Assembly (NCBI GenBank): GCA_029548865.1
Contig: JAKPMO010000024.1
Span: 99,256-163,255, forward strand
Reading direction: 5' to 3'
Source of the DNA: Caldisericota bacterium
GTDB lineage: Bacteria; Caldisericota; Caldisericia; JAAYUI01
DNA: 64,000 nt
The notes below the pieces were generated by a model. It saw only the letters and a list, made by a program, of their open reading frames with translations, was not told the DNA's origin and searched no databases. A program made the translations under genes and the position numbers. Of the stretch, positions 18,640 to 57,070 are shown one piece after another. Positions within the stretch are counted from its first letter, which is position 1. Every line of letters starts with the position of its first letter.

Positions 18640-18664
18640 TAAATTGGCATTTCCTCAAATATAC

Positions 18665-18696
18665 AAAAACCCCTGGTTTGTCCAGGGGTTTTTGTT
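18665..18696 (+). terminator. Rho-independent terminator after the transketolase N-subunit gene
   Basis: AAAAACCCCTGG-tttgt-CCAGGGGTTTTTG: GC-rich 7-bp stem followed by a T-run. Confidence 0.7.
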
Positions 18697-18789
18697 GTTT
18701 ACCCCAACAGAACCAGGTTGTCTTCTTTTTAGTATCTGCTAAAATAATTCCAGATATCATTCATGCATGTGCAATGGGGAGGTCATGCG

Positions 18790-21700
18790 ATGAAGACAAA
18801 ATCAGGTTTTATTGTCTTGTTTCTCATCATGGCAATCATTTGCCAACAAACCGTAGTGTTTGCGGAATTTGGGCCTGTAAAAGTGGTGCCAGGGGGCCAA
18901 CCAATGCAGACAACGCAAAGGGCCTGCAGGGCAAACCAGCCAACAGCTTTCAGCATAAATTTCAGGCATACTGAAACAATCAATTTTCACGACTGGATCA
19001 AAGTCTGGTTCCCCGCAAATGAAACATTGTGTAGCATTGAAGATGCCTGCGATGGGATACCAGGAATTAGCGGCACGTTAGAAAACGCCAGATTTATTCC
19101 ATGCAAAGATTATTTTGAAAAATATAAGGATAGTAAAGAATCTGATCTTGGCAAGCTCTATAGGATAACAAACAGCGAAACTGCTGATACAGAATTTTTC
19201 GATTGCGAGAGTAACCAGGAACAGAAATCCGATTGTAAGATGATAAAAGACCCATCAGGATTAGGCTATTGGCTGACTGGAACGGTAATGCCAGCGCTTC
19301 CAAAAAACGACGCAAAAAGGGTGGAAAAACTAGGAAACCTAGATCATAAAATAAGATTGGCCGGCATTGATTGCGGTTGTAGCCCTGTCTATCCTGTTAT
19401 TGTAAACATACCTGAAGAGCGCTCACTCAAAATAACAAGTAGCTTTCAGATTTGGAAGGGGAATGGCCCATTCAGAAACAACGATGATTACATCAATCTT
19501 TTTATCCAAAAGGATGTCGGGATAATTTCGCCAATGAGCCCTGGCAAATACTCTGTAATGGTTGCCACAAAACCAGAGCCGATACCTATTGAATCCGAAA
19601 TGTTTGTTATTCCATGCTCATCAATATCAAAACCGGTGGTTTCATTTGAGACAAGTGATATAGAAAGTGCTTCACAGGTCAAAATCAATTTCAGTACTGG
19701 CGAAGGTGGGGCGCTGGACAAAGGCATTTCAAAAATATGGCTGGAATTTCCAGAAGGGTTTTCGCTCCCCAAAGAAGTATTGCCCCAAAATATGAAAATA
19801 AATGGGAAACCATGTCCTAAAAACACGTCCTTGATTGCGACTGACACTCAAACAATCTCGGTTGTTTTGCCAATAGATATAAACAACTCATCAGAAATCG
19901 AAATCGTCTTTTCAAAACTGGCAGGCATAAGGACACCTGGCAAAAAAGGCACCTATACAATCAACGCCTGGACAGACCCCGAACCAGAAAAAGTCGAATC
20001 GGAACCTTTTTTAATTCAAACCAGAACAAGGGTCGAAGTAGAGCCAAACCTGTACATGCATAATGCCAAGTACCTTGCAGTATTTAACATGGATGACAAT
20101 CAGCAGATACGCCTGAATCAGGAAATAATGATCACTTTTCCAGAAGGAACAATACTTCCGGCAACTGCAAAGCAGGGAACAGTTTTGATCAACGAAATAG
20201 GGTATGCACAATCAATATCCATAGAGAACAAAAAAGTCACAATAAAAGCTCCTTTTGAAATCTCAAAAATGCTCAAAATCGAGTTTTCAAAAGAGTTTGG
20301 GATAAAAAACCCTCCAGAAGGTGAGCATGAGCTGTTTTTTACGATTGGCGGCAAAACAAATTCTTATGGCAAATTTACCATCATCTCAAAACCATTGGTC
20401 TCAGATTTGATTCTTTCAGACTACAAGGCCAAAGAAGTATCAGGGTTTTCATTTAAATATTTTCCTTCAGCAACAGGCAATCTTTCACCAGGAGATATCA
20501 TGACCCTGATTTTTCCTGAGGAATATGCGATTCCAGAAAAAATAGCACCTGAAAACATAAAGATTAAAGGTCATCCATCCAGAAATGTCCTTATACAAAA
20601 AAATGAGATCACTCTGACTCTGAATGACGAAGTAGACCTGGAAGACAATGGCACATTAGTCGAGATCTCAAGTGGCGCTGGAATAACAAACCCCGAGAGG
20701 CGAGGTACTTACAGGATAACTGTAAAAACAAGCAAGGATGAAAAGACTGAATCTAATGAGTATTCGACCAAAGAAGCAAAGTTGCTTACCCAGCTTGTTT
20801 TTGAAGACCCATCTGAACCGGATGGCCTTGAATATGATGGGTGGAAATGGTTCAAGAAACCGCCAAAAGTAAAAATCCTTTCATGGAATCCCGATGCTAC
20901 TGTATATTTCTGGTTTGATAACAACGAAGCCCATAAAACTTCACTTGATGAATATCCAAACATAGATTTTGGAGAATATGTACAACTCCAGTCAACATTT
21001 TCTTATTGCTCAGAGCTCGATGATGAGAAAGAGGAGGCCAAATCTGTTAAATTATGGGTTGACAATATTCTTCCAAAGATTTGGGTACAAAGTCCTGAGA
21101 AAAATATTCTGATTACAAATAAAAAGACAATAACAATAGTCGGGAATCGCGCACCAGGAGAATTAAGAGTATACGGAGACCGGAAGTACACACTCGATGG
21201 TGTTTCAATTAATGGCGAAACAATCCTCCAGCCAGAAATTGTAGAAAAAAACTTGTTAAATTCTGCAAAAATGGAATTTGAAAAACAAATTCTGCTAACA
21301 GAGGGAGACAATAAAATAAAAATAAGAGGTTTTGATTTGGCTGGCAACGAGAAAATAATTACCAAAATAGTCACTCTGGATACTACCTCACCTGAAATAG
21401 AAATTGTGACCCCTAATCCCAAAAAACCACAGAAAATTGGTGAAAGTATTGCCATTCAGATCAAAACCGAGACTGGCGCCCTAGTTTACATCAATGGGCA
21501 ATTGGCGGAAAAAATAAAGGAACTTCCCTGGGGGATAGCTGTTTTTGAGGGAAACTGGAATGTTGTGAAAGGCGAGAACAAGATTGAAATAAACTCCACA
21601 GACATGGCAGGCAATGCCAATACAATATTTCTCACTTTCGAGGGAAGCCTCTACGAAAGTATTATTGAATTCTGGATTGGAAAAACCGAATTTTACGTAA

Positions 21701-22092
21701 ATGGTGAGAAAATGCCAAATCCTTCTTCAGCTCCAACTTGCTCTTCTCCGCCCTTGCCAAAAGATTTCAAGGGAACCGCATTTTTACCAATTCAATATCT
21801 GTTAACTAACGCTCTTTATACCAGTGCTTCCTATGATGGAGACACAAATAAAATTACGATCACACAATCTAGCGAGAACGAAATTATCACAGTTATTGAG
21901 CTGGGCATAGGGGAAAAACAAGCCAAAGTTAATGGGGTGGAAGTATGGATTGACAAGAATAAGATCCTATACCCCATAATCATTTCAGGAAGTGTCTTTT
22001 TCCCTCTCAGATTTATGGCCGAGAACTTGAATTGCGATGTTAAGTATGATCCAAAAACCAAGAAAATTACTCTGGCTTATCCAAAACAATAA
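18790..22092 (+). CDS. Large secreted protein (~1100 aa) with C-terminal copper-amine-oxidase-N-terminal-like (CuAO-N) stalk domain
   Basis: GGAGG RBS then MKTKSGFIVLFLIMAIICQQTVVFA signal peptide. Cys-containing N-region, multiple Ig-like/beta-rich segments. C-terminus (GTAFLPIQYL...ITIT...KVNGVEVW...FFPLRFMAENLNCDVKYD) matches the CuAO-N domain used for cell-envelope attachment in Clostridia. Confidence 0.75.
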   Translation: MKTKSGFIVLFLIMAIICQQTVVFAEFGPVKVVPGGQPMQTTQRACRANQPTAFSINFRHTETINFHDWIKVWFPANETLCSIEDACDGIPGISGTLENARFIPCKDYFEKYKDSKESDLGKLYRITNSETADTEFFDCESNQEQKSDCKMIKDPSGLGYWLTGTVMPALPKNDAKRVEKLGNLDHKIRLAGIDCGCSPVYPVIVNIPEERSLKITSSFQIWKGNGPFRNNDDYINLFIQKDVGIISPMSPGKYSVMVATKPEPIPIESEMFVIPCSSISKPVVSFETSDIESASQVKINFSTGEGGALDKGISKIWLEFPEGFSLPKEVLPQNMKINGKPCPKNTSLIATDTQTISVVLPIDINNSSEIEIVFSKLAGIRTPGKKGTYTINAWTDPEPEKVESEPFLIQTRTRVEVEPNLYMHNAKYLAVFNMDDNQQIRLNQEIMITFPEGTILPATAKQGTVLINEIGYAQSISIENKKVTIKAPFEISKMLKIEFSKEFGIKNPPEGEHELFFTIGGKTNSYGKFTIISKPLVSDLILSDYKAKEVSGFSFKYFPSATGNLSPGDIMTLIFPEEYAIPEKIAPENIKIKGHPSRNVLIQKNEITLTLNDEVDLEDNGTLVEISSGAGITNPERRGTYRITVKTSKDEKTESNEYSTKEAKLLTQLVFEDPSEPDGLEYDGWKWFKKPPKVKILSWNPDATVYFWFDNNEAHKTSLDEYPNIDFGEYVQLQSTFSYCSELDDEKEEAKSVKLWVDNILPKIWVQSPEKNILITNKKTITIVGNRAPGELRVYGDRKYTLDGVSINGETILQPEIVEKNLLNSAKMEFEKQILLTEGDNKIKIRGFDLAGNEKIITKIVTLDTTSPEIEIVTPNPKKPQKIGESIAIQIKTETGALVYINGQLAEKIKELPWGIAVFEGNWNVVKGENKIEINSTDMAGNANTIFLTFEGSLYESIIEFWIGKTEFYVNGEKMPNPSSAPTCSSPPLPKDFKGTAFLPIQYLLTNALYTSASYDGDTNKITITQSSENEIITVIELGIGEKQAKVNGVEVWIDKNKILYPIIISGSVFFPLRFMAENLNCDVKYDPKTKKITLAYPKQ

Positions 22093-22104
22093 ACTTTTCG
22101 AGCA

Positions 22105-25100
22105 TCAATTTGAGCGTTTCAGGTGCTTTTCCTGATACTCCCTGACAACATCCACGGTGGCAGGGGCATTCATGGCTGAAAAAACAAACTCTGCCTCAAA
22201 AAAGAACTTCTCTGCGTCCTCAGCATCATATGGTTTTTTGTGTTTTGAGTTGTTCCTTTCACAATAGGCTTTGCCAAGATTGAATGCTGATAAAGCCATG
22301 TAAATTTTGTTTCCCTTTTGAAGCGCGAGTTCCCTGGCATGAACAAACCATCTGATTGCATGATCAAATTCCCTGAAATCTTTTTCAGCCCTGTAAAGAT
22401 AAACATAACCCGCAACAACTGCATGCTCATATTTTTGGGCGTAGCCACCAAAAAGTCCCTCCTCATCAGTAATCAAATTGGCTATAGAAGGATATTTTGC
22501 AATGATTTTTTTGTAGGAAAGGATTGAAACGCCCCAATATGCACAATCAAGCATATATTCTTCAATGCCCAAATTACATGAAATAGTCCAGGCCTTCGCA
22601 AAATACTCCATTGCGTCATCAAACCTTTTCTGTTTTGAAAGCCAATAACAATAAACCTCGTATGGCAATATTTTGCATGCCTCACATTCCTGGAACTCAG
22701 CAAGTCCTATCAAGCGCTCCGTTCTGGGGCCAGATTTTTCCCAGCCATGCGCCAATGTGATAAAAAGAGATTTGTATACAAGCTTCTCCAATTCAACACG
22801 ACTCACTTCAGCACCATCTGGAATGCTTAATTTATTAACGCTTTCAATCGCTTCGTCGAATTTGCCAAGAGCATAAAATGATTTTGATTTAAGTATGGCA
22901 GATTTGGTTTTGTCCCGGAATGTAAGCAAGCCCTTGTCCATATTACTCAACATTTCAATTGTCTTACCATAATTGCCCATGTTGTACTCGAACAATGCAA
23001 GCTCAATCGCATGCCTCTCCGCAACATCCGGGTTCAATTCGGCAACTTCTGACTCAATTTCTTTTGCCATTTCAGATGCATCATCCATCTTCATGTCTCC
23101 AAGAAGGCATGAAAAAAGAACGGCTTTTCCTTCTGCAACTTTGTCTGGCAAGGAGCATTGAGCGATATAGAGCGCCTCTTTCGCAATGTCTTCGGCTTCT
23201 GAAAAGTTTGAATTCTCTTTCAGGGAGAGCGCCAAGTATTCAAAAACCACAAATCTTTCTGATGGTAGACCCATAAGAGCTGGCGTTTTGGCTTCCTTAG
23301 AGCCGATTTTCTGTAATTCACTGTATTCACCAATCTCAAAAAGAAACTTGAGATAATGAATCAATATTAATGAGTATTCCGTATTTACCCCTATTTTTTT
23401 TGCCTGACCAAGCGCTTCCAAAAATAAAGCTTTTGCCTTCTCAAAATCCCCTTTTGCATAAAAAATATCAGAGAGGACCCTCTTTGCCTTAACATCATAA
23501 ACAGGATTGGATTCGCTCACTCCCACGCTATGTATATAATCAATCCATTCGGAATAGGTTTGGGAGCCAAGTGCAATCAATCTTTTTGCACACTCTTCAG
23601 CCCATATTACCGCTTTGTCTATTTCTCCGGCCATTTTGTAGTGTTTTGCTATCTGGCAGGCAATTTCATCAGTTACTTCATCGCTAAATTCTAGGATCTG
23701 CGCAATCAGTTTGTGTGTTTCGTGCTTTTCTGTATCTGGTATCCTAGATTTTACTGTCTCTTTCATAGATGGATAAGCAAACTCATACGTACTCTTGTAA
23801 AAACCATTCCTTTGCTTTAAAAGTGATGACGATATAAGTTCGTAAAAAGCATTCACGCATTGACGTCTTGTGAGACCAAGCGATTTCATAACAATTTCCA
23901 TTTCAAATGGTTCTTCGAAAAGGCACGCAAACTCAAGGATTTTTATGGATATTTGGGAGAGTGAGGAAAGGTGTTGCGATAAAATTGAGCCGGATACATC
24001 TTCAAAGGAAATAGGCCTTTTATAAACAAGCCTTCCACTATCAAGCGCAAGCATTTTTTGTGAAACAAACGTTCTTATGTTGTTTATCAATAGATAGGGA
24101 ACACCACCGAATCTCTCCCAGAGGTCGTTTAAGAAATCATTTGGCACTTCATGACCTCTTAGCATTGATTCCATCATCATTTTTACATTAGATTTCTTAA
24201 GGTTTTTGAGATCAATAAACCTCAAATCGCTCATTCTATGCAATTTCAATCCAATAGCTGCATTGGATCTAAATGTTGGTTCGAGACACGTAAAAACGAC
24301 TATTATCTTCAATTCTGGATTAGAGGAAAGTTCAAAACATACATCAAGGGTTTCCTTGTCAAGATGCTCTATGTCCTCAAGGATGATAACAATGGGCGCT
24401 TCAAACGATATTGCCTTCAAAAATTTCAAAAAAGCGAAAGAGCATGCGCTCTGATTTGGAAAAGATTGGGCAGATTTTCTTTTTGATTTACACAATTGTT
24501 GGCTGAAAAACCCGAGCTCTTTTGAATTTTGCTCTATTAAATCAGAATATTGGTCCAGATTATAGTGTGCAAGATGAAAAGCAAGCTGTTTGAGACCATC
24601 CATCGGTAATGAGTTTGTCGAACCATGTCCCCTTGCCCTCAAAAGCATTTTCCCTGATAACTGCACTATGGAAGCAAATTCATCAACAAGTCTGGTTTTT
24701 CCAATTCCAAATGGCCCAGCAACACAGACTGTTACTGATTGAGTTTGTGAGCTGTTCCAAGAATCAATAAGGTACTGCATCTCAAACTCACGACCCACCA
24801 TATTGGGTTCACAAAGAACCAGCCCAGCAGGTTTATTACTCTTTTCATCTGTGGTGATTGACTGCATTAATGATAGTAATTCTGAAGCGCTTTGTATCCT
24901 TTCGTTTGGGTCTTTTCTCAAGAGACAAAGAATAACGTTGTCGAGCTCTTCCGGGATATCACCATTAAAATGTGATGGAGGGTCGCAAGAAGCATTTATC
25001 AGTTGATAGGCAATTTTTTTCGGGTCTGGAGAGCCAAAGGGTAGGGATTCCGTCAAAGTGTTATACATCGTTGCACCAAAAGAATATAAATCCGCCCTCA

Positions 25101-25671
25101 TATCAATAGCTCCACCCATCAATTGTTCAGGGGCCATATAGTTAAAGGTACCAACCACCATGCCCGTACTCGTTATGCGCCCATTTACAACATTTTTTGC
25201 CAAACCAAAATCAATGAGTTTTACTCTTATTCCGGTTTTGATATCCGGGGAGTCGAGCACAATAAGATTACCTGGTTTAATGTCTCTGTGCACAACGGAC
25301 CTCGAATGGATGTGCGAAAGTATCCCGGCAACATCATAAAAAATACCCAACGCCTGCTCTATGCCGACGTTATGAAGTTTTGAAAGGGGAGTTCCTTTCA
25401 CATACTCCATTATGTAGTAATAATCTTCGCCTTCTCTACAGCAATCCCATACTTTCGGGATACCTGGATGATCAAGGGAGGCCAAGATGGAAGCTTCTGA
25501 AAGAAATCTGTTTTTCTCAACATTGTCCCAGTCATCATCTTTAAAATGTGAAATTTTAATAATCACATCTTCATTACTCTGAAGATCCAGCGCAGCGAAG
25601 ACTTCACCCATTCCTCCGCTTCCAATTTTTCTAAGTAGTCTATAGCGACCAAAAATCAGCCGTTCTTCCAT
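22105..25671 (-). CDS. Ser/Thr protein kinase fused to STAND/AAA NTPase and TPR repeats (PknK/MalT-like architecture)
   Basis: Hanks kinase motifs (GSGGMGEVF; HRDIKPGNLIV; DFGLAK; APE). After the kinase, Walker A GPFGIGKT and Walker B IVIILEDIEHLD. C-terminal ~600 aa are TPR-like helical repeats. Confidence 0.85.
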   Translation of the reverse strand: MEERLIFGRYRLLRKIGSGGMGEVFAALDLQSNEDVIIKISHFKDDDWDNVEKNRFLSEASILASLDHPGIPKVWDCCREGEDYYYIMEYVKGTPLSKLHNVGIEQALGIFYDVAGILSHIHSRSVVHRDIKPGNLIVLDSPDIKTGIRVKLIDFGLAKNVVNGRITSTGMVVGTFNYMAPEQLMGGAIDMRADLYSFGATMYNTLTESLPFGSPDPKKIAYQLINASCDPPSHFNGDIPEELDNVILCLLRKDPNERIQSASELLSLMQSITTDEKSNKPAGLVLCEPNMVGREFEMQYLIDSWNSSQTQSVTVCVAGPFGIGKTRLVDEFASIVQLSGKMLLRARGHGSTNSLPMDGLKQLAFHLAHYNLDQYSDLIEQNSKELGFFSQQLCKSKRKSAQSFPNQSACSFAFLKFLKAISFEAPIVIILEDIEHLDKETLDVCFELSSNPELKIIVVFTCLEPTFRSNAAIGLKLHRMSDLRFIDLKNLKKSNVKMMMESMLRGHEVPNDFLNDLWERFGGVPYLLINNIRTFVSQKMLALDSGRLVYKRPISFEDVSGSILSQHLSSLSQISIKILEFACLFEEPFEMEIVMKSLGLTRRQCVNAFYELISSSLLKQRNGFYKSTYEFAYPSMKETVKSRIPDTEKHETHKLIAQILEFSDEVTDEIACQIAKHYKMAGEIDKAVIWAEECAKRLIALGSQTYSEWIDYIHSVGVSESNPVYDVKAKRVLSDIFYAKGDFEKAKALFLEALGQAKKIGVNTEYSLILIHYLKFLFEIGEYSELQKIGSKEAKTPALMGLPSERFVVFEYLALSLKENSNFSEAEDIAKEALYIAQCSLPDKVAEGKAVLFSCLLGDMKMDDASEMAKEIESEVAELNPDVAERHAIELALFEYNMGNYGKTIEMLSNMDKGLLTFRDKTKSAILKSKSFYALGKFDEAIESVNKLSIPDGAEVSRVELEKLVYKSLFITLAHGWEKSGPRTERLIGLAEFQECEACKILPYEVYCYWLSKQKRFDDAMEYFAKAWTISCNLGIEEYMLDCAYWGVSILSYKKIIAKYPSIANLITDEEGLFGGYAQKYEHAVVAGYVYLYRAEKDFREFDHAIRWFVHARELALQKGNKIYMALSAFNLGKAYCERNNSKHKKPYDAEDAEKFFFEAEFVFSAMNAPATVDVVREYQEKHLKRSN

Positions 25672-25799
25672 TATGTCTAAATTCTAAAACAACAATGAAA
25701 CCAGTCAATCTTGACATATCAGGAACCTAACCTAACATTTATTTTTTAGTTGCACCTTCTGGTCAATAAAAATTGACCCACAAGCCCAAAGGAGGAATT

Positions 25800-26228
25800 G
25801 TGAAGAATTACGAGCAGATGTTTGTTTTGAATCCAGCTCTCGACGAAGAAGCAGAAAAAGCTCTCGCAGAGAAACTCGCCACGATCGTAACAAATGATGG
25901 TGGTGAAGTGCTGGACCTCAAGAAATGGGGAAAAAGAAGGCTGGCCTATGAGATTAAAGGCCAGACTGAAGGTTCCTACTGGGTCCTCACATTCAAGGCC
26001 CCACCCCAGGTACCGCTTGAGCTGAGAAGGATCGTCAAAATCACTGAAGGTTTCCTCAGAGACATCCTTGTTGACCTTACTGACTCAATCAAGGCCCAGA
26101 AAAATCGCGAAGTGCACATGAAGGCCGCCGAAGCACGCAGGGCAGCCAAGGCACTCGCAAGGGACAGAGAAAGAGAGCAGAAACAGGAAACCGAACAGCA
26201 AGTTGAAGAACCCCCCAAGGAGGCCTGA
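25800..26228 (+). CDS. rpsF: 30S ribosomal protein S6
   Basis: AAAGGAGG RBS 5 nt before GTG. VKNYEQMFVLNPALDEE...RRLAYEIKG is canonical S6. The ORF-track start at 25773 has no RBS. The acidic C-tail is common in S6. Confidence 0.9.
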   Translation: MKNYEQMFVLNPALDEEAEKALAEKLATIVTNDGGEVLDLKKWGKRRLAYEIKGQTEGSYWVLTFKAPPQVPLELRRIVKITEGFLRDILVDLTDSIKAQKNREVHMKAAEARRAAKALARDREREQKQETEQQVEEPPKEA

Positions 26229-26671
26229 TGTACAATAAGGTTCTGCTTATAGGCAACCTTACTGCCGACCCAGAAATCCGTTACACTCCCTCAGGTGCCC
26301 CGGTAACAACAATCAGGCTCGCCTGTACAGAAAAGTACAGGTCAAAAAGCTCTACGGAGCTCAAGGAAGAAACGCTCTTCATAAACTGCATTGTGTGGGG
26401 AAATCAAGCCACATCAGCACACCAGTACCTCAAAAAAGGCAGCAAATGCTTTGTCGAAGGGAAACTGGTCATCAGGGAATATGAAAAAGACGGAATCAGG
26501 CGTTGGGTCACAGAAGTAAGGGTGCAGAACCTTAAATTCCTCGGATCACCAACAAAAGGCACATCATTTGAAAACAAGGGACAACCATCCCAGCAACAAC
26601 ATGCGGCCGAGGCCGAGGAAGACGAATTCATGCCGCCAGATTTCAATGACGAAGACATTCCGTTTTCATGA
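26228..26671 (+). CDS. ssb: Single-stranded DNA-binding protein
   Basis: MYNKVLLIGNLTADPEIRYTPSGAPVT OB-fold N-terminus. Acidic C-terminal tip DIPF. Confidence 0.9.
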   Translation: MYNKVLLIGNLTADPEIRYTPSGAPVTTIRLACTEKYRSKSSTELKEETLFINCIVWGNQATSAHQYLKKGSKCFVEGKLVIREYEKDGIRRWVTEVRVQNLKFLGSPTKGTSFENKGQPSQQQHAAEAEEDEFMPPDFNDEDIPFS

Positions 26672-26689
26672 AGAGAGGAGAACTGAAAA

Positions 26690-26962
26690 ATGGATAAAAT
26701 GATGGATGACGATCGCAAAGGCAGAAGAATGGGAAAGGGACGCAAGTTCAGCAAACCCAGAAGAAAAGTCTGCATCTACTGCGCTGACCATAATGACTAT
26801 GTTGACTATAAGGATGTGGCCAGACTTCAAAAATATGTTACCGACACTGGTAAAATCCTTCCAAGGCGTGCCACAGGCATGTGCGCAAAACACCAGAGGA
26901 GACTCTGCACGGCAATAAAGAGGGCAAGAGAAATAGCCCTTCTACCATTTTCTGCGAGGTAG
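26690..26962 (+). CDS. rpsR: 30S ribosomal protein S18
   Basis: RRKVCIYC...[31 protein letters not shown] is the S18 signature. Confidence 0.9.
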
Positions 26963-26968
26963 CTTCGG

Positions 26969-27427
26969 ATGAAAACAAAAGTCATACTTCTTGCAGATGT
27001 ACCAGGTGTTGGTAAAAAAGGTACAGTAGCAGAGGTTGCATCAGGTTACGCAAGAAACTACCTTGTTAAAAACAGTCTTGCACAGATAGCAACCACATCT
27101 TCAATTTCCAACCTTGCATACAATGTTGAGCAAGCAGACAAAAAATCTGCAAAAGCCAAAGCAAGGGCAGAAGAGATAAAGCAGAAGATTGAGGAAAAGA
27201 CAATAACAATTTCGGCAAAAGCGGGCCCAAGTGGAACATTATTCGGTTCAATAACCGCAGACATGATCTCAAAAGCCATGAAGCGCGACCTCAATATCGT
27301 AATGGACAAAAAATCCGTAGATCTTGATGAACCAATCAAAAGCACTGGAATCCATACAATTCCGGTGAAGCTCCATCACGAAGTTGTCGCCGAGCTGAAG
27401 CTCGAAATAGTACCTCAGTCCAAGTAA
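26969..27427 (+). CDS. rplI: 50S ribosomal protein L9
   Basis: MKTKVILLADVPGVGKKGTVAEVASGYARNYL is a canonical L9 N-domain. 152 aa. Confidence 0.9.
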   Translation: MKTKVILLADVPGVGKKGTVAEVASGYARNYLVKNSLAQIATTSSISNLAYNVEQADKKSAKAKARAEEIKQKIEEKTITISAKAGPSGTLFGSITADMISKAMKRDLNIVMDKKSVDLDEPIKSTGIHTIPVKLHHEVVAELKLEIVPQSK

Positions 27428-38928: not shown

Positions 38929-39147
38929 ATGCCTATATATGAATACACTTGCCCAAAATGCGGACACGACTTCGAAGTGTTCACAGTAAAGATAGAAGAA
39001 GGAACACCATCCTGCCCAAAATGTGGCTACGAAAAAACAAAAAAGAGAATATCAATGCTTGGCTACCTGAAGCATCCGGATCACGGTGGACAAGGGAAGC
39101 TCACATCCGGGAGCACCGGCTGTAGCGATGGCTCCTGTTCAAAATAA
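38929..39147 (+). CDS. FmdB-family zinc-ribbon protein
   Basis: MPIYEYTCPKCGHDFEV...CPKCG is the FmdB/CxxC-x17-CxxC signature. Gly/Ser/Cys-rich tail. Confidence 0.7.
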   Translation: MPIYEYTCPKCGHDFEVFTVKIEEGTPSCPKCGYEKTKKRISMLGYLKHPDHGGQGKLTSGSTGCSDGSCSK

Positions 39148-40387
39148 AACAAAAGCGCAAAAAAAAGAAAACCCTTATCTTAAGGCATTTCTTTCATGGT
39201 TCGGAAAAGAGCTGGGCAAAAGCCCGAATTCAGTAAAAGCTTACCACTGGGAACTTTCCCGCTTTTTCAATTACCTTGGCCAAAACGACATCACCATTCC
39301 AGAGTGCAAAAGATTGCACATAAGAGATTTTCTCACAGAACTCAACCAGGACAATTCATCACACACAAGGGCCAGAACGCTTTTTTGCATCAAAACGTTC
39401 TTCAGGTTCCTCTACAGGGAAGGATACATACCGTCAAACCCTGCCGAAACAATTGATCCACCCAAGCAGACCCAGAAAGTGCCAAAATTTTTGCTTGCAA
39501 ACCAGTTTCGAAAGCTGATAAAAGAGCTCTGCCTTGAGGCTGAGAAAGAAAACAACACACAAAAGAAGGTCCTGAAGGTTGCCTATGAATCGGAGCCTGG
39601 CCCAGATTCATTTTTTATTCTTCTGAGAATGCTTGGATTGAACATGGAAGAAATATCCTCACTCTCTGTTTCAAAAATAAACATCAGGAGCAAAACCATT
39701 TCTCTTAATGAAAACAAAAAAATCCTGCTGGACCAAAAATCATCTGCTTGTGTGGCCCAATTCATAAACAATCAGGAACTGCAAAAATCTTTTTTTGAAG
39801 GTAACAGCAGAAAAAAAGCTTTCAAAAACCATATTTCATGGCTTGAATCAAATGGCGCCACTCAAGAAGAAGCAACCCATGGACTGGAAAGTTTTCGGGT
39901 AAACCCGGCCAAAAGGGACCTGGCGATCATAAGCCTTTTGCTGGGAACTGGAATCAGGCGAAGCGAGCTGGTTGGCCTGAACAGGCAAAACTACAATGAA
40001 GAATCGAAAACCATCATGGTCACAAGAAAAGGTGGCGACCAGCAGATTGTCGAGGTCGGCGATGAAGTCTGTGTTGCGCTTTCTCGCTACCTTGGTACAC
40101 GCAGGGACAACCTTGACCCAATGTTTCTTTCTGCAAAAGGAAAAAGGCTCAGCAATGAAGGTCTCTGGCTGATTACCAAGAAAATCCTTGGAAAATTTGG
40201 GCTTGAAGGTTCCACACATACACTCAGGCACACGTTTGTAACCGAACTCGTCAGGCAGGGAGTTCCTGTGGCAATCGTTCAATCTGTGGTCGGACACAAA
40301 AGCGCACAAACCACGATGAGATACACTCATATCATATCTTCAGACAGAAGAAATGCCATTTCCAAGATCAAGCTCGGCATAAAATAG
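39128..40387 (+). CDS. Tyrosine-type site-specific recombinase (XerC/XerD-like, with ~100-aa insertion)
   Basis: N-terminal SAM-like core-binding region (SPNSVKAYHWELSRFFNYL). C-terminal catalytic RHTF...GHKSAQTTMRYTHI (R-H-R-Y). About 420 aa versus ~300 for Xer. Start chosen at MAPVQN. Confidence 0.75.
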   Translation: MAPVQNKTKAQKKENPYLKAFLSWFGKELGKSPNSVKAYHWELSRFFNYLGQNDITIPECKRLHIRDFLTELNQDNSSHTRARTLFCIKTFFRFLYREGYIPSNPAETIDPPKQTQKVPKFLLANQFRKLIKELCLEAEKENNTQKKVLKVAYESEPGPDSFFILLRMLGLNMEEISSLSVSKINIRSKTISLNENKKILLDQKSSACVAQFINNQELQKSFFEGNSRKKAFKNHISWLESNGATQEEATHGLESFRVNPAKRDLAIISLLLGTGIRRSELVGLNRQNYNEESKTIMVTRKGGDQQIVEVGDEVCVALSRYLGTRRDNLDPMFLSAKGKRLSNEGLWLITKKILGKFGLEGSTHTLRHTFVTELVRQGVPVAIVQSVVGHKSAQTTMRYTHIISSDRRNAISKIKLGIK

Positions 40388-40442: not shown

Positions 40443-40958
40443 ATGATCGAATGTCCCGTTTGCGGCAGAGCAAACCTTGGTGGTGTTTTGTGTTGCGAAT
40501 CGTGCGGAGCAAAGCTCGAGCAGAAAGATGAACATTTTGAAAATGTCCTCCAGAACCCGAACCTGATAAGGTTCCCGCACCCTCCAAGCACTGTAACTTC
40601 ATCGCATCCTGCCATCAAAACACAGGTGGAGATGGTTGGAAGGTTAGCACTTAATGACGAGCACCAGTTCATCCTTGATGGCAAAAACGAATATCTGATA
40701 GGCAGAGCTGACAAATTGGCAGGGATAGTTCCTGAGATCGACCTTACTAATTTCGACAAGGAGATGGTAACATCAAGAAGGCACGCCTGTGTGACAAAAA
40801 AAGGCGACTCATACATAATTGAAGATCTTGGCTCAACAAATTTTACCTATCTGAATGGAAGAATGCTCTCCCCAAAAACCCCCACAAAGCTTGATGACGG
40901 GGACGTTATCAGGATAGGAAAAGTTTATCTGGTGTTTTCAAGAATAAAGAAAAACTAG
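40443..40958 (+). CDS. Zinc-ribbon + FHA domain protein
   Basis: N-terminal CPVCGRANLGGVLCCESCG zinc ribbon. FHA core YLIGRADK...SRRHACV...EDLGSTNFTYLNGRML...GDVIRIG. Confidence 0.8.
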   Translation: MIECPVCGRANLGGVLCCESCGAKLEQKDEHFENVLQNPNLIRFPHPPSTVTSSHPAIKTQVEMVGRLALNDEHQFILDGKNEYLIGRADKLAGIVPEIDLTNFDKEMVTSRRHACVTKKGDSYIIEDLGSTNFTYLNGRMLSPKTPTKLDDGDVIRIGKVYLVFSRIKKN

Positions 40959-40979
40959 GATTTTTATTGGAGGAAACCT

Positions 40980-43385
40980 TTGGAAAACAGGGTTATAGTC
41001 AAGAAATACAAATTGCTTGAACCTCTGGCATCTGGTGGAATGGCAACTGTTCACTTGGCAAAAAATCTTGCCACAGACGAGATTGTCGTGGCAAAAATAC
41101 CCAATTTCTCGGGGCTTCCAAATAAGGAAAAGTTCGAAAGAAGGTTTCTGAGAGAAGCCCAGATACTCTCAAAAATAAACAGCAGGTATGTTGTCAAAAT
41201 ACATGATTTTGGCAAAGAGGAGTCAACTGGAGAGTACTTCCTTATTCTAGAATACCTCCATGGCAAAACACTCGAGGAGATAGCTCAAGGGAAAGAAAGG
41301 ATTCCAGTTCCAACAGTTGTTGACCTCACAATGCAAATTGCAGAGGTACTGGGTGACCTGCACGATCAAGGAGTTGTCCACAGGGACATAAAAAGCTCCA
41401 ACATCAAAATATCTTCCGAAGGCAACATCAAGCTCTTCGATTTTGGAATAAGCAAGGGCGAGGACCTCCCAAGCATGACCAGGTCTTCTGACTTCCTGGG
41501 AACACTCCAGTACATGTCGCCAGAGCAGACTGATGGAAGGGAAGTCGACATAAGGTCTGACATATACTCGACCGGCATCGTCATTTATGAAATGCTGTTT
41601 GGCAAGTTGCCTTTTGATGCGCCATCGCCTGTTGAAGTAATCGAAATGCAGAGACACAAACAACCAAAGATACCCCCCGAAGCCAAAGAAAGGGGCATTC
41701 CAGCTTCTCTGCTGTCCTTGATGTTCAGATGTCTTGAAAAAAATCCTGCCGACAGGTTTCAAACCCCCCAAGAGCTGGCCGCAGCATTGAGGGCAGTTTC
41801 CGAAGATTTGGGGATGACCCAATCTGAAAGGGACGCCTATAGAAAAACCAAACTCACTCAGATAGCCCTTTCTTCTCCGCAATCAACTTTTAGAACACGG
41901 GCAAGAAGAAAACAAACCATGACAATAGCCCTCACAGTCGCAGGGATTATTGCCATATCTTCAGGTATCTGGCTATCAAGGGGTTGCACAAAACCACTGG
42001 AACCAGACTTTCTGGTTGCCCAGGGCGAACTTGTGCAATACCAGATTCCGCTTGCAACACCACCTGGAACAAAAGATATAGAAGCCACAATAAGTAAGTC
42101 TCCGGATGGATTGTCAGTAAAGCTTGAAAAGCAAATGGAAAACGAGGGTGAAAATTGGGTCCTCTCAATATATTCCAACCTCACAATGCCCATAGGTGTT
42201 TATGAAATAAAGCTTGGCGTACAATACACAAGAGATAACGATCTCAAAGAAAATGAGGAGACAAGCTTCAATGTTGGGGTAATAAAAGGCAATCTTGGCA
42301 ACAAAGCAATCAGGTTGATCAGTTCGGATGAAATCCCCAACGATCCGAACTCAAAGGTCGAGAATGCCGTCAAAATCAATGGAAAAATCTTTGTGCCTGT
42401 TGAAACAATTGCATCAGGGACAAAAGCTCAGACCGAATGGGACAGGGAATCCGGAAAGCTGACATACTGGACCCCAGACAAGACAATCGAGCTCAAAAAA
42501 GGTGAAAAAACTCTGAAAGAAAATGGCTCGGAGAAGCCATTGAATGAAGCGCCTGTTGTGCTCAATGACTCAATGATGGTCTCCGGTAATGTTGCCGAAA
42601 CGTACATGGACACAGCTGTGACATCAAAAAATGATTCTGAAATTGAATTGACATTCAAACAGTCCACGCCTGGCTCAAAAATTTCAATAAGCACCAAAGA
42701 CGAAAAGGGCAATGACATCAAAGGCGCAATTGTATTGATAAACCAGAACTACAAGGGCAAAACACCAATAAAAATAGAACTTCCGAATGGCGTCTACCAG
42801 ATAAAGATACAAATGGGCGGTTTTAACGATATAAACGACGAGATAAAACTTGTGACAACCAAAACCCTTGATTTGAGCTATCCACTGGTCGCAATACAGC
42901 AAAAACCGCCAGAGCAGGAAAAGAAACCGCCAGTAGAAACGAAACCCAAGCAAAACGGGTTTCTTGATCTTAGCGTCAATGTCCCATGGGGCTCTTTCAT
43001 TGTTGACGGAAAAACCCAGCAAAATATTACAAGCCTTTCACTGGAGCTTGCACCGGGCAAACACAAGGTTGTATACAGGCTAAAAGATTTCCCCGACCAG
43101 ACAAAAGATGTCCAGATCGAACCAGGGCGAAGAAACTCAGTCAAATTCCAGATTTCCTCAGGCATCCTCAAGGTGACATGCAATGTGGTAGGCATTGTAT
43201 ACATAGACAACATTGAGTTCTCGGACAGGATTTTCACAAGTCCCAAGGAACCATACATAAGGGAAGTGGCCGCAAAAACGTATATAATCCGCGTCGACAA
43301 AAGTGGATACAAGATGCAGACGAAATCTGTAAAAGTTGAGCCTGGCAAAACCACAACAGTGGAGTTTAACCTGGAACCAAAATGA
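40980..43385 (+). CDS. Hanks-type Ser/Thr protein kinase with TM segment and extracellular CuAO-N-like + PEGA domains
   Basis: TTG start 5 nt after GGAGGA. Kinase motifs ASGGMATVH, HRDIKSSNIKI, DFGISK, SPEQ. One TM helix (~res 305-325). Ectodomain carries a CuAO-N-like segment (KINGKIFVPVETIA...) and two PEGA-like modules (LPNGVYQIKI; LAPGKHKVVY). Confidence 0.85.
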   Translation: MENRVIVKKYKLLEPLASGGMATVHLAKNLATDEIVVAKIPNFSGLPNKEKFERRFLREAQILSKINSRYVVKIHDFGKEESTGEYFLILEYLHGKTLEEIAQGKERIPVPTVVDLTMQIAEVLGDLHDQGVVHRDIKSSNIKISSEGNIKLFDFGISKGEDLPSMTRSSDFLGTLQYMSPEQTDGREVDIRSDIYSTGIVIYEMLFGKLPFDAPSPVEVIEMQRHKQPKIPPEAKERGIPASLLSLMFRCLEKNPADRFQTPQELAAALRAVSEDLGMTQSERDAYRKTKLTQIALSSPQSTFRTRARRKQTMTIALTVAGIIAISSGIWLSRGCTKPLEPDFLVAQGELVQYQIPLATPPGTKDIEATISKSPDGLSVKLEKQMENEGENWVLSIYSNLTMPIGVYEIKLGVQYTRDNDLKENEETSFNVGVIKGNLGNKAIRLISSDEIPNDPNSKVENAVKINGKIFVPVETIASGTKAQTEWDRESGKLTYWTPDKTIELKKGEKTLKENGSEKPLNEAPVVLNDSMMVSGNVAETYMDTAVTSKNDSEIELTFKQSTPGSKISISTKDEKGNDIKGAIVLINQNYKGKTPIKIELPNGVYQIKIQMGGFNDINDEIKLVTTKTLDLSYPLVAIQQKPPEQEKKPPVETKPKQNGFLDLSVNVPWGSFIVDGKTQQNITSLSLELAPGKHKVVYRLKDFPDQTKDVQIEPGRRNSVKFQISSGILKVTCNVVGIVYIDNIEFSDRIFTSPKEPYIREVAAKTYIIRVDKSGYKMQTKSVKVEPGKTTTVEFNLEPK

Positions 43386-46045
43386 GAAGAAACTTTCTTC
43401 TATTAGCAGTTATTTCATGTCTCTTTGCAACGGGTATATCACTTGCCAAACCATCTTTCGACTGGTGGCCAATGATAGGGCATGACAATCTTAAAAGTGG
43501 TATAAGCAAGGATAATTATCTCCCTTTCACGCTACCTTTTAGTGAAAGCAAAAAGGGGTCCTGGGACGTATCACTTTCAAATCTCGGTGGGCTGGGAACA
43601 CCGGTCGTAAAAGATGGAGTTTTATATATTGTCCAACAGGGTTTTTACGACAAAAGGAGTGGCAATAGGCAAGAGGGAACTCTCAGACAGTATGACATAT
43701 TTACCGGGAACCTTCTCCTAGAACAAACTTTCAATGCCGTGGATGTACCAGAGCCAGGAGTGGTTGGGAGTCCTGCCATCTGGGGAGGAAATGAAGAAAA
43801 AACAGTCGTGGTTGGAGATTATCTTGGAAACATAGTCTATTTCAGGGGTATTTTCCCAAAAAAACTTGTTGATGCAGGCGGGGAGAGAACACCAATCACT
43901 TCGTCGCCAACCATATACGACAATACCTGTTACATTGGTTCCGATTCAGGAAATGTCTATGCCTTCGATCTTGCCGAATTAAGAATAACAGATTCATTCA
44001 AGGCAAAAGGAAAGATAACAACTTCGCCATCTGCGTTGAAAGATCTCATTGTTTTTGGCGATGATTCGGGGAGTTTTTTTGCATACAACAGAAAAACCGG
44101 CAAGCAGATCATAAATGCCCAGCCATCAACAAGAGATGACATATCAATAACTTCATCATCATGTATTACTGAATCACAAGGAAAAACATATGCGATTTTT
44201 GGTTCCTCAAAAGGTTTTGTGCACCGAATAACAATAGGCGGAAGTAATATCGGGCAAATTGTAAGTTTCAGGACAAGCCCCGACAGGAGAACACAGAGGC
44301 CAACTTTCTGGGCAACGCCAACCGTTGTGGATGACCAGATTTATGCAGGCGCAGACGATGGCAACTTGTACAGAATAGACCTGGGAACAATGAAATCGGC
44401 CGGAATGATAGATTTGAAAAATCCAATTTTTGCGCAAGCAACCTCGGCAGGCAAATACCTCTATGTTTGCACTGCATCGCTTGACAGCGAAGAAAATCCT
44501 GCCAGAGAGGGAAGCCTGTATACAATTGATCTTGATACATTCACAATCAATCAAACCAATGACAGTGGTATTGAGATCAAGGGTGGCTCCCTCACACAAC
44601 CGGTGATAGCTGGCGGATATATGTTTGTGGCCTCCAGGTCGGGCAAAATTTACCGTTTTGAGGGCGCCAGGCCACAGCTAATGGTTTCACCAACCCAAAT
44701 CAATTTTGGTACCATAAAATTCGGCACAGCAGGACAAAAGGATATTGTCATTAGTAATAATGGTCCTGGCGACCCGCCACTTGTCGGTGAAATCCTGGTG
44801 GATGAACAGTCGAAACTATGGCTTTCAGTCGACAAGTCGGAGTTCAAAACTTCTGGAGAAACAAAATTAACAGTAAAAGCAAGTTCTTCTAATATCAAAG
44901 ACATCAGGGAGACAGAGTATTCAGGCACTATAAGTATTGAAACCAACGCCGGAATACAAACCATTGAAGTAAAAGCAACTTTTGCGCCTGATTTGCCAAG
45001 AATACAAGTCTCAAGCTCCCAAATTGATTTCATGGACACATACAGAGGACGAAAAAATTTGAGAGAGTTTACTGTAAGCCTGGCAAAAGGATCAATGGCA
45101 ACTCTTGATTTCAAACCCTCCGAAAACTGGCTCGAATGCTCTCCACAATCAGCAACCCTCTCTGAAGGGAAAAAAAGCATAAAAATATCAGTGACTGCTT
45201 CAACTGAGAACCTTCCCATAGGGAAATATGCGGCAACAATCCAGATCGGGGACCAGAAAACAATTGCCAATCCAGTCACACTGCCAGTAACAATCAATGT
45301 TGTTCCCCAACCTGCAAGACCGAGCATAGTTAACTCCTCAGTAGAAGTTGTTTTCCAGGACTGTTTTGTGGACAAACCAAAAGAAGCGGTCTTCCAGATA
45401 CTAAACTCCGGCGACAATGATTTGAAGGAGGGCATAAAACCAATACTTTCAACCTCGTGGCTTTCAAACCCGCGCTTTGTCAAAAACAAAGGTAATTCAT
45501 GGCTATACATATGCACGATCTCACCTTCAACATTCTGGCCAAATCAACAATATACAGCATCTATCAACACCATGATAAGCTCGACGCCAATTACGCTAAA
45601 AATTACTGTAAAAACAATGCACATACCCGAATGCAAGATAGAATTTTCAATAGGATCAAAGCAGTACATTGTGAATGGAAGATCTCTACCAATGGATGCT
45701 CCGCCTTATGTTTCCAAAAATGGCAGCACTATGGTTCCAATCAGATATATAGGGGACCCACTTGGTTATTTCTACAAAGCACAGACGGAATGGGTAAAAG
45801 AGCTGAAAACGGTATTGTTTACGCTGGCTGGAACAACACTAAGGCTCATAGTGGACTACCAGAATGCCATAGTGGAAAGGGCCGATGGCTCCATAGACAC
45901 GGTAAAACTGGCTTCTCCCCCAGAGATAAAAAATGGCAGGACATTCATCCCGCCAAGAATTATTGGTGAAACGTTTGGTGCAAAAATATCTTGGGACGAC
46001 AGAACCAGAAAAGCCACCCTCGTATTTAACCAACCACCACCCTGA
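43382..46045 (+). CDS. Secreted PQQ-like beta-propeller protein with C-terminal CuAO-N-like domain
   Basis: 4-nt overlap with kinase gene. Signal peptide MRRNFLLLAVISCLFATGISLA. Repeated propeller-blade motifs (G.vYa.D...G) and Ig-like middle region. C-terminus IVNGRSLPMDAPPYV..GSTMVPIRYI...TFIPPRIIGETFGAKISWD is CuAO-N-like. Confidence 0.7.
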   Translation: MRRNFLLLAVISCLFATGISLAKPSFDWWPMIGHDNLKSGISKDNYLPFTLPFSESKKGSWDVSLSNLGGLGTPVVKDGVLYIVQQGFYDKRSGNRQEGTLRQYDIFTGNLLLEQTFNAVDVPEPGVVGSPAIWGGNEEKTVVVGDYLGNIVYFRGIFPKKLVDAGGERTPITSSPTIYDNTCYIGSDSGNVYAFDLAELRITDSFKAKGKITTSPSALKDLIVFGDDSGSFFAYNRKTGKQIINAQPSTRDDISITSSSCITESQGKTYAIFGSSKGFVHRITIGGSNIGQIVSFRTSPDRRTQRPTFWATPTVVDDQIYAGADDGNLYRIDLGTMKSAGMIDLKNPIFAQATSAGKYLYVCTASLDSEENPAREGSLYTIDLDTFTINQTNDSGIEIKGGSLTQPVIAGGYMFVASRSGKIYRFEGARPQLMVSPTQINFGTIKFGTAGQKDIVISNNGPGDPPLVGEILVDEQSKLWLSVDKSEFKTSGETKLTVKASSSNIKDIRETEYSGTISIETNAGIQTIEVKATFAPDLPRIQVSSSQIDFMDTYRGRKNLREFTVSLAKGSMATLDFKPSENWLECSPQSATLSEGKKSIKISVTASTENLPIGKYAATIQIGDQKTIANPVTLPVTINVVPQPARPSIVNSSVEVVFQDCFVDKPKEAVFQILNSGDNDLKEGIKPILSTSWLSNPRFVKNKGNSWLYICTISPSTFWPNQQYTASINTMISSTPITLKITVKTMHIPECKIEFSIGSKQYIVNGRSLPMDAPPYVSKNGSTMVPIRYIGDPLGYFYKAQTEWVKELKTVLFTLAGTTLRLIVDYQNAIVERADGSIDTVKLASPPEIKNGRTFIPPRIIGETFGAKISWDDRTRKATLVFNQPPP

Positions 46046-56968: not shown

Positions 56969-57070
56969 GGCTTCTACTCCCTCGAGCAAGCATGTAATTA
57001 ACCAAAAGGCAATGTTACTCTTCTATCGTTATAAGTCAAACAACCATATTATTTATAATATATGTAAAAA

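What the first reader, a model, noticed from the sequence alone, without database searches (positions are those of the whole stretch)
22105..25671. 1188-aa Ser/Thr kinase - STAND/AAA NTPase - TPR fusion (PknK/MalT-like) in accessory context
The N-terminal Hanks kinase is fused to a P-loop NTPase (GPFGIGKT; hhhhLEDIEHLD) and ~600 aa of TPR-like repeats. This is the domain logic of STAND signalling switches. Such proteins (Mtb PknK-like) act as regulated signalling hubs. STAND+TPR architectures are also the scaffold of Avs-type antiphage sensors. The gene is convergent, tail-to-tail with only 12 bp spacing, with a 1100-aa secreted protein and is followed by the rpsF operon. Both large genes look inserted between core genes (tkt-N ... 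rpsF).
Basis: partly seen in the sequence, partly recalled or inferred. Interest (0 to 1): 0.6.

Follow-up and report, generated by a model that had tools for sequence, protein, structure and literature searches.

The report
Conserved STAND-regulated protein kinase beside rpsF
This is a real 1188-residue bacterial Ser/Thr kinase fused to a MalT-type ATP-driven switch and a TPR sensor, but it is a fixed, vertically inherited gene next to a ribosomal-protein operon in Caldisericia bacteria, not an inserted or antiphage gene.

Summary

In all 11 Caldisericia lineages recovered (kinase identity down to about 29%), the gene lies head-to-head with rpsF-ssb-rpsR-rplI. The window shows back-to-back -35 boxes there, and an apparently leaderless kinase mRNA. 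None of 76 Bacillota/other rpsF loci has a homologue within 10 kb.

dN/dS is 0.08, in the range of the housekeeping neighbours. PADLOC finds no defence-STAND match outside the kinase domain. The nearest relatives of the switch module carry cyclase, HTH or kinase outputs.

What does vary is the slot after the kinase stop codon. The large secreted protein there is the ancestral neighbour (7 of 11 lineages). A Type ISP restriction enzyme replaces it in the two closest relatives.

Verdict: a new member of the known PknK/MalT-like STAND-kinase kind. Signal and substrates are unknown. A functional tie to the ribosomal operon is possible but unproven.

The parts
22105..25671 (-). Whole gene: 1188-aa Ser/Thr kinase - STAND NOD - TPR sensor
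   Evidence: ORF and translation. Pfam Pkinase and AAA_16. dN/dS 0.08. Orthologues in 11 Caldisericia lineages.
24832..25671 (-). Hanks-type kinase domain, residues 1-280
   Evidence: Pkinase E 1.3e-46. K39, E59, H128, D130, N135, D154-F155-G156 and P181-E182 are invariant in 15 family members; R129 is conserved in 90% or more. dN/dS 0.03.
23773..24831 (-). STAND nucleotide-binding oligomerisation module (NBD-HD-WHD), residues 281-633
   Evidence: AAA_16 above the gathering score. The AF2 model shows five-strand alpha/beta NBD, helical domain and winged helix. Foldseek top hit is 6MFV (PH0952 STAND-TPR, E 2.5e-12), followed by NLRs, CED-4, Apaf-1 and ORC/Cdc6.
24694..24717 (-). Walker A GPFGIGKT (residues 319-326)
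   Evidence: G319, G322, G324, K325 and R327 are invariant in the family alignment.
24358..24393 (-). Walker B and following acidic motif IVIILEDIEHLD (residues 427-438)
   Evidence: The hhhh[ED][DE]xxxxD pattern is kept in all 15 sequences; D438 is invariant.
24097..24105 (-). GxP motif of the helical domain (G523-V-P525)
   Evidence: G523 and P525 are invariant. The GxP motif of HD helix H7 contacts the P-loop in STAND proteins (PMC6468293).
22108..23772 (-). Arm plus TPR-like sensor, residues 634-1188, with a conserved C-terminal FFEAEF motif (D1149, F1158, E1161, F1162)
25672..25800 (.). 129-bp divergent control region shared by the kinase and rpsF
   Evidence: Sequence. Motifs conserved across lineages.
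25681..25708 (-). Putative kinase promoter: TTGACT-N16-TAGAAT. The -10 element ends 9 nt before the ATG, so the mRNA would be leaderless or nearly so, with no Shine-Dalgarno sequence
   Evidence: Consensus scan. The same geometry occurs in 6 of 8 lineages scored. Inference only; no transcript data.
25711..25738 (+). Putative rpsF promoter: TTGACA-N16-TAACAT. Its -35 box abuts the kinase -35 box (AGTCAA-TC-TTGACA)
   Evidence: The (G/A)TCAA-N(2-11)-TTGACA arrangement is seen in 7 of the 8 lineage sequences that show this stretch (TTGCAA in L007).
25750..25800 (+). rpsF 5' leader. CCUUCUGG pairs with the CCAAAGGAGG Shine-Dalgarno region around a variable hairpin
   Evidence: Resembles the published S6:S18 leader (PMC3895269). 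Rfam gave no hit at E <= 1.
25801..27427 (+). rpsF-ssb-rpsR-rplI operon, the invariant divergent neighbour
   Evidence: NCBIfam S6, SSB, S18 and L9. The GTG start at 25801 follows AGGAGG.
18790..22092 (+). Convergent 1100-aa secreted protein (Glucodextran_B and Cu_amine_oxidN1 domains), the ancestral 3' neighbour of the kinase
   Evidence: Pfam. Homologues of 31-39% identity occupy the same position in L006, L007, L011, L013/L095 and L015; L094 carries a 1098-aa gene with the same Pfam domains there.
18702..22113 (.). Replaceable cassette slot. DNA homology to L005 stops at 18701 and resumes at 22114
   Evidence: blastn. A Type ISP/MmeI-like RM gene fills the slot in L005 and in L092/L093. dS is discordant across the slot.

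Best explanation
The gene encodes a soluble signalling kinase of the MalT/AAA_16 clade of STAND proteins, the same kind of protein as M. tuberculosis PknK. It is a vertically inherited core gene of Caldisericia. Proposed mechanism, inferred from the family: in the resting state the NOD holds ADP and is clamped shut by the arm and the TPR sensor. An unknown cytoplasmic ligand binds the MalT-domain-III-like sensor and releases the clamp. ATP replaces ADP and the NOD multimerises. The N-terminal kinase domains are then brought together, trans-autophosphorylate on the activation loop, and phosphorylate targets. Shown here: the three-part architecture, intact catalytic and nucleotide-binding motifs, purifying selection on all three parts, fixed position head-to-head with rpsF-ssb-rpsR-rplI, and restriction of full-length relatives to this lineage. 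Inferred: the switch mechanism, the leaderless transcript, and any role in growth or translation control.

For: Clade: the non-orthologous relatives of the NOD-TPR module carry class 3 cyclase (about 30), wHTH (about 13), kinase (about 11), BTAD, LuxR, GGDEF or XRE outputs. The literature places PknK-type kinases with MalT in one STAND subfamily (PMC4381067; PMC6468293).

Core gene: 11 of 11 lineages have the gene divergent from rpsF. None of 76 non-Caldisericia rpsF loci has a homologue within 10 kb. dN/dS is 0.08 overall (0.03 kinase, 0.08 NOD, 0.11 TPR), against 0.00-0.12 for the neighbours. The promoter geometry is conserved. The GC deficit recurs in 6 of 7 lineages.
Against: No biochemical or expression data exist for any family member, and neither the ligand nor the substrates are known. 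The protein diverges about twice as fast as its housekeeping neighbours (72% against 85-99%, and 34% against 58-82%). The TPR part is fastest, at 21-25% identity or undetectable. That pattern would also suit an arms-race sensor. As a result most lineages were found through the kinase itself, which cannot reveal genomes that lack it. The cultured species Caldisericum exile was not examined. Orthology to PknK itself was not tested.
Confidence: 0.72

Rival explanations
1. It is an Avs-like antiphage sensor. The TPR domain would recognise a phage protein, the STAND module would oligomerise, and the kinase would act as an abortive-infection effector by mass phosphorylation of host proteins, in the manner of staphylococcal Stk2.
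For: The TPR sensor is the fastest-evolving part. The slot just after the gene holds a Type ISP restriction-modification gene in two close relatives. Other RM-type genes lie near the locus in L009 and L010. PADLOC kinase models (PD-T4-6, mad6, MkoA) match the kinase domain.
Against: The PADLOC matches cover only the generic kinase domain. Residues 281-1188 alone give 0 hits at E <= 1. The gene is at the same position in 11 of 11 lineages across deep divergence, the opposite of the patchy distribution of defence genes. dN/dS is 0.11 even in the sensor, and 20 sensor positions are at least 90% conserved. The nearest NOD relatives all carry signalling outputs, with no nuclease, protease, TIR or SIR2 among them. 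The best structural match of the sensor is the small-ligand sensor of MalT.
Confidence: 0.08
2. One reading: an accessory, horizontally acquired signalling gene inserted with its large neighbour between core genes (tkt-N and rpsF).
For: GC is 0.40 against 0.46-0.49 in the flanks. The neighbouring cassette 18702-22113 is truly exchangeable, and dS discordance marks a recombination breakpoint there.
Against: Homology between the window and L005 resumes inside the last three codons of the kinase, so the kinase lies outside the swapped cassette. The kinase-rpsF junction is kept in 11 of 11 lineages. The low GC recurs in 6 of 7 lineages. No integrase, tRNA gene or repeat flanks the gene. Full-length relatives are confined to this lineage.
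Confidence: 0.03
3. The same STAND kinase, but functionally coupled to its fixed neighbours. It would control, or be co-controlled with, the rpsF-ssb-rpsR-rplI operon, for example by phosphorylating S6, S18, L9 or SSB, or by sharing the overlapping promoter region. That would tie an intracellular signal to ribosome or replication output.
For: The kinase-rpsF junction is the only junction at the locus kept in all 11 lineages. The rplI side and the kinase 3' side are both broken in several. The -35 boxes are back-to-back within a 129-bp spacer. The title of a PknK study links that kinase to translation control (reference 48 in PMC4381067; the paper itself was not available).
Against: Adjacency alone is weak evidence. 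A 129-bp spacer filled by two promoters is a small target for rearrangement, so the junction could persist neutrally. The genes are divergent, not co-transcribed. No substrate data exist. STAND kinases in other phyla are not next to rpsF.
Confidence: 0.17

Closest known systems
Mycobacterium tuberculosis PknK (STAND Ser/Thr kinase)
   Same: Soluble protein of about 1100-1200 aa with an N-terminal Hanks kinase, an AAA_16-type NOD and a MalT-like helical-repeat C-terminus. The literature groups it with MalT as one STAND subfamily (PMC4381067).
   Different: Sequence relationship to PknK itself was not tested. The lineage is Caldisericia, not Actinomycetota. The sensor has no detectable sequence relatives outside its own small family. 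The fixed position next to rpsF is specific to this lineage.
E. coli MalT (STAND transcription activator)
   Different: The output is an N-terminal kinase rather than a C-terminal LuxR DNA-binding domain. The sensor is longer, about 550 aa against about 370. The ligand is unknown.
Pyrococcus horikoshii PH0952 (PDB 6MFV), a STAND with a TPR sensor
   Same: Best whole-module fold match (Foldseek E 2.5e-12 over 784 columns). It supplies the double-autoinhibition model, in which arm and sensor clamp the NBD (PMC6468293).
   Different: PH0952 has an ArsR-type DNA-binding effector and only six TPRs. Sequence identity is 15%. Its authors place it between the Apaf-1 and MalT clades.
Avs antiviral STAND NTPases
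   Same: STAND NTPase with a TPR-like sensor and an N-terminal effector; large single-gene system.
   Different: No match to any PADLOC defence STAND model. Conserved position rather than patchy islands. Kinase effector. Strong purifying selection on the sensor.

Membership tests
Hanks-type (eukaryote-like) Ser/Thr protein kinase | Match to the protein kinase domain profile above the curated threshold | tested here: met
   PF00069: 159.6 bits against a cut-off of 31.7, residues 10-265.
Hanks-type (eukaryote-like) Ser/Thr protein kinase | Catalytic residues: VAIK Lys, alphaC Glu, HRD, catalytic-loop Asn, DFG, APE | tested here: met
   K39, E59, H128, D130, N135, D154-F155-G156 and P181-E182 are invariant in 15 family members. 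R129 is conserved in 90% or more; one member has HYD.
Hanks-type (eukaryote-like) Ser/Thr protein kinase | Phosphotransfer to Ser/Thr | not testable with these tools
   Needs an in vitro kinase assay.
STAND NTPase, MalT/AAA_16 clade | P-loop NTPase with Walker A GxxGxGK[ST] and Walker B hhhh[DE][DE] | tested here: met
   GPFGIGKT at 319-326 and IVIILED at 427-433, conserved across the family. AAA_16: 42.3 bits against a cut-off of 32.6.
STAND NTPase, MalT/AAA_16 clade | NOD made of NBD, helical domain with GxP motif, and winged-helix domain | tested here: met
   G523 and P525 are invariant. The AF2 model shows alpha/beta NBD, HD and a WHD with a beta-hairpin. Fold matches: 6MFV, NLRs, CED-4, Apaf-1 and ORC/Cdc6.
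STAND NTPase, MalT/AAA_16 clade | C-terminal repeat sensor of the MalT domain III / TPR type | tested here: met
STAND NTPase, MalT/AAA_16 clade | Inducer-dependent ADP/ATP exchange and multimerisation | not testable with these tools
   Needs nucleotide-binding and oligomerisation assays.
PknK-type STAND kinases | N-terminal kinase followed by an AAA_16 NOD and a MalT-like repeat region in one soluble polypeptide | tested here: met
PknK-type STAND kinases | Specific sequence relationship (orthology) to M. tuberculosis PknK | not tested
   No PknK sequence or model was available in the tools used. No PknK-named NCBIfam model matched.
Avs antiviral STAND | Similarity of the NTPase or sensor to known defence STAND families | tested here: not met
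   PADLOC on residues 281-1188: 0 families at E <= 1. Full-length PADLOC hits cover only residues 1-284.
Avs antiviral STAND | Patchy, island-like distribution among related genomes | tested here: not met
   Same position in 11 of 11 lineages. Only the adjacent slot varies.
Avs antiviral STAND | Recognition of a phage protein and protection from infection | not testable with these tools
   Needs phage challenge experiments.

The most novel reading that the evidence does not exclude
A class-wide, positionally fixed STAND kinase whose leaderless gene shares an overlapping back-to-back promoter region with rpsF-ssb-rpsR-rplI. It would act as a dedicated regulator of ribosome, translation or single-strand DNA-binding functions in Caldisericia. 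A lineage-specific MalT-like sensor would read an intracellular metabolite and set phosphorylation of S6/S18/L9/SSB or of factors that control them. If so, the PknK-translation link would have an independent, genomically hard-wired counterpart in a deep-branching phylum.
Probability: 0.15. Interest if true: 0.55.

Novelty: new member of a known kind. Interest (0 to 1): 0.3.

Why it matters
STAND kinases are common in genome annotations, but almost none has a known signal or substrate. This one comes with an unusually clean comparative handle. It is a single-copy family confined to one poorly studied phylum. It stays fixed beside a ribosomal-protein operon while everything else around it rearranges. 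All three of its parts are under purifying selection. That narrows the search for its function to housekeeping control rather than defence and gives concrete candidate substrates to test. For the scan itself the lesson is practical: low GC, large size and STAND-TPR architecture did not indicate an island here. The truly mobile element is the neighbouring cassette slot.

Tried and rejected
- A single-sequence search of residues 281-1188 against PDB sequences gave nothing significant. A family profile was needed.
It returned mostly Bacillota and only four Caldisericota loci. It served as an outgroup control but not as the intended unbiased presence/absence survey.
- The word-indexed homologue searches with the C-terminal region, or with its profile, failed to return the distant orthologues P0003-P0013. 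The exhaustive phmmer search did return the distant-orthologue clusters, as their 50%-identity representatives (P0003, P0005, P0007, P0013 among them).
- Rfam at E <= 1 found no family in the rpsF leader. It found only a sub-threshold palindromic 'rimP leader' hit, which turned out to be the tkt-N terminator.
- RNAalifold on the leader gave only the invariant outer helix, because MAFFT misaligned the variable inner hairpin. There is therefore no formal covariation support.
- The promoter regex did not fit L009 or L010, and L015 failed the N-terminal motif search.
- The PknK translation-control paper (PMC3416233) is not held, so only its title, as cited in PMC4381067, is used.
- A full-length AF2 run was not made, because the tool returns no contacts and so could not show how the kinase docks on the NOD.
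- Considered and rejected: a transmembrane receptor kinase (no hydrophobic segment); a pseudogene or decaying gene (dN/dS 0.08); a prophage or integrative element (no tRNA gene in the window; no integrase within 10 kb of the gene; the only recombinase gene found lies about 13 kb away at 39086-40387).
Full report
**Observation**

The ORF at 22105-25671 on the minus strand is real and encodes 1188 residues. It ends 12 bp from the stop codon of a convergent gene for a large secreted protein. That gene spans 18763-22092, or 18790-22092 as called by gene finders. On its other side the kinase gene is divergent from rpsF-ssb-rpsR-rplI. The genes gcvT, a transketolase N-terminal subunit and three M42 peptidase genes lie beyond the secreted protein. 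NCBI names on identical proteins place the organism among uncultured Caldisericia/Caldisericales, phylum Caldisericota, and several source samples are metagenomes.

**Anatomy of the protein**

- **Kinase domain.** Pfam finds a protein kinase domain at residues 10-265 (E 1.3e-46). In an alignment of 15 family members the catalytic residues K39, E59, H128, D130, N135, DFG 154-156 and P181-E182 are invariant. R129 is conserved in 90% or more.
- **NTPase module.** Pfam finds AAA_16 at 291-455, above its gathering score. The Walker A residues (G319, G322, G324, K325) are invariant. So are D438, which closes the Walker B motif IVIILEDIEHLD, and G523/P525 of the GxP motif.
- **Structure model.** An AlphaFold2 model of residues 281-1188 has mean pLDDT 86.8. 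It shows an alpha/beta nucleotide-binding domain, a helical domain, a winged helix with a beta-hairpin, and then about 26 helices of solenoid.
- **Profile match.** A profile of nine family sensors also hits MalT domain III by sequence (E 2.3e-9).
- **Solubility.** No segment looks transmembrane.

Its first refutation condition, fortuitous Walker motifs, is not met.

**Which STAND clade**

PADLOC models of defence proteins match only the kinase domain. The 908 C-terminal residues alone match none at E <= 1. A profile search with the NOD-TPR part recovers, beyond the orthologues, proteins whose extra domains are signalling outputs. These are class 3 nucleotide cyclases (about 30), winged-helix DNA-binding domains (about 13), kinases (about 11), and BTAD, LuxR, GGDEF and XRE domains. 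No nuclease, protease, TIR or SIR2 effector appears. This is the signalling subfamily that the literature describes as containing MalT-type activators and PknK-type kinases (PMC4381067; PMC6468293).

An exhaustive phmmer search of 1.84 billion cluster representatives gave 11,800 hits at E <= 1e-3 but only five at E <= 1e-30. Only a handful of proteins align well beyond the NOD; the orthologues among them are 1163-1191 aa with the match starting near residue 285. The sensor is therefore specific to this small family.

**Genomic context, the decisive test**

I recovered the gene's relatives with their flanks. The loci are:

- window = L001-L004
- L092/L093 (93% identical)
- L005 (72%)
- L006 (34%)
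- L007/L008 (32%)
- L009 = L012 (30%)
- L010 (29%)
- L011/L014 (30%)
- L013/L095
- L015
- L094

In every one the gene lies divergently next to rpsF. The called gaps are 24-186 bp, and the smallest come from over-extended S6 calls. As an outgroup control, none of 76 rpsF loci from Bacillota and other groups has a homologue within 10 kb.

Both other junctions at the locus are broken in some lineages. The rplI side has insertions in L009 and L010 and a different neighbour in L011. The kinase 3' side has three different occupants. The low GC of the gene relative to the ribosomal operon recurs in 6 of 7 lineages, so it is not a sign of recent transfer.

**Selection**

Against the 93%-identical relative, dN/dS is 0.08 for the whole gene: 0.03 for the kinase, 0.08 for the NOD and 0.11 for the TPR part. 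Thirteen neighbouring genes give 0.00-0.12.

The protein nevertheless diverges about twice as fast as those neighbours in amino-acid identity, with a gradient from kinase to NOD to TPR. Twenty sensor positions remain at least 90% conserved. They include a GW pair (976-977) and a C-terminal FFEAEF motif. This pattern fits a constrained sensor for a conserved signal better than an arms-race receptor.

**Control region**

The 129-bp spacer holds two sigma-70-like promoters whose -35 boxes abut (AGTCAA-TC-TTGACA). The kinase -10 box ends 9 nt before the ATG and there is no Shine-Dalgarno sequence, so the mRNA would be leaderless or nearly so. The same geometry is found in 6 of 8 lineages scored.

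Downstream of the rpsF promoter lies a conserved leader. In it CCUUCUGG pairs with the CCAAAGGAGG ribosome-binding region around a variable hairpin. This matches the description of the S6:S18 autoregulatory leader (PMC3895269). These promoter and leader assignments are inferences from sequence only.

**What really is variable**

DNA homology between the window and L005 stops at 18701, just after a strong terminator hairpin that follows tkt-N (18663-18695; z -4.5 for the 136-nt stretch folded). It resumes at 22114, inside the last three codons of the kinase.

The 3.4-kb segment between those points carries the secreted-protein gene. L005 and L092/L093 carry a Type ISP/MmeI-like restriction-modification gene there instead.

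Synonymous divergence is discordant across the slot. For the window against L005, dS is 0.20-0.37 on the tkt-N side but 0.5-3 on the kinase side. For the window against L092 it is 0.1-0.5 on both sides. This indicates a recombination breakpoint.

The secreted protein is nonetheless the ancestral neighbour. Homologues of 31-39% identity sit convergent to the kinase in L006, L007, L011, L013/L095 and L015, and L094 has a 1098-aa gene with the same Pfam domains there. Counting the window, that is 7 of 11 lineages.

**Mechanism**

The most likely mechanism is the STAND switch worked out for MalT and PH0952.

1. At rest, the ADP-bound NOD is clamped shut by the arm and the sensor.
2. Inducer binding releases the clamp.
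3. ATP binding follows and the protein multimerises (PMC4381067, PMC6468293).
4. Here the recruited output would be the N-terminal kinase, activated by proximity.

All parts needed for this are present and conserved. None of the steps has been shown for this protein.

The fixed pairing with the ribosomal operon suggests a link to translation or replication control. The title of a PknK study cited in PMC4381067 points the same way. I rate that link as a minority possibility, because a short spacer filled with promoters could keep the junction intact without any functional coupling.

**Verdict**

This is a new member of a known kind, a PknK/MalT-like STAND kinase. It is a core gene of its lineage, not an accessory or defence gene. 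Interest is modest. Its value lies in the clean comparative framing and in the testable candidate substrates next door.

Noticed in passing
window 18702-22113; L005 13559-17192; L092 13574-17212: A one-gene cassette slot between the tkt-N terminator and the kinase stop codon. It holds a 1100-aa surface protein in the window, but a Type ISP/MmeI-like restriction-modification enzyme in the two closest relatives. Synonymous divergence is discordant on the two sides, which indicates a recombination breakpoint.
   Followed up: yes
window 25750-25800 (+): Conserved rpsF 5' leader. An invariant CCUUCUGG pairs with the Shine-Dalgarno region CCAAAGGAGG around a hairpin whose stem changes in a compensatory way between lineages. 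It fits the published S6:S18 autoregulatory leader, but Rfam did not detect it at E <= 1.
   Followed up: partly
window 18663-18695: A perfect 14-bp GC-rich hairpin flanked by an A-tract and a U-tract, apparently a bidirectional terminator, directly after an orphan transketolase N-terminal subunit gene. No transketolase C-terminal subunit turned up among the window ORFs scanned.
   Followed up: partly
window 40443-46045 (+): A second Hanks kinase gene (801 aa; kinase, Cu_amine_oxidN1, two PEGA and CarboxypepD_reg domains). An FHA-domain gene precedes it and a PQQ beta-propeller/Cu_amine_oxidN1 protein follows it. The same trio lies about 3 kb from the STAND kinase in L009 and L010, so the two kinase loci are neighbours in some lineages.
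   Followed up: partly
window 39086-40387 (+): A tyrosine recombinase (Phage_integrase with an N-terminal SAM-like domain) lies between queA and the FHA/kinase cluster. Gene order at this point differs from L009 and L010.
   Followed up: no
window 57532-62833 (-): Four consecutive ORFs of 406-417 aa with no Pfam match, in a stretch of low GC (0.36-0.38). They may be a paralogous family or an acquired region.
   Followed up: no
window 18790-22092, 40980-43385, 43382-46045, 46733-48217: The Cu_amine_oxidN1 domain recurs at or near the C-terminus of four large secreted or membrane proteins in this window, and in many neighbours of the related loci. In this phylum it may serve as a cell-envelope anchoring module.
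   Followed up: no
window 53132-56989 (-): A 1285-aa protein with DUF11 (CLIPPER-type) and BNR-like repeats, next to an M23 peptidase gene. It is probably another surface protein.
   Followed up: no
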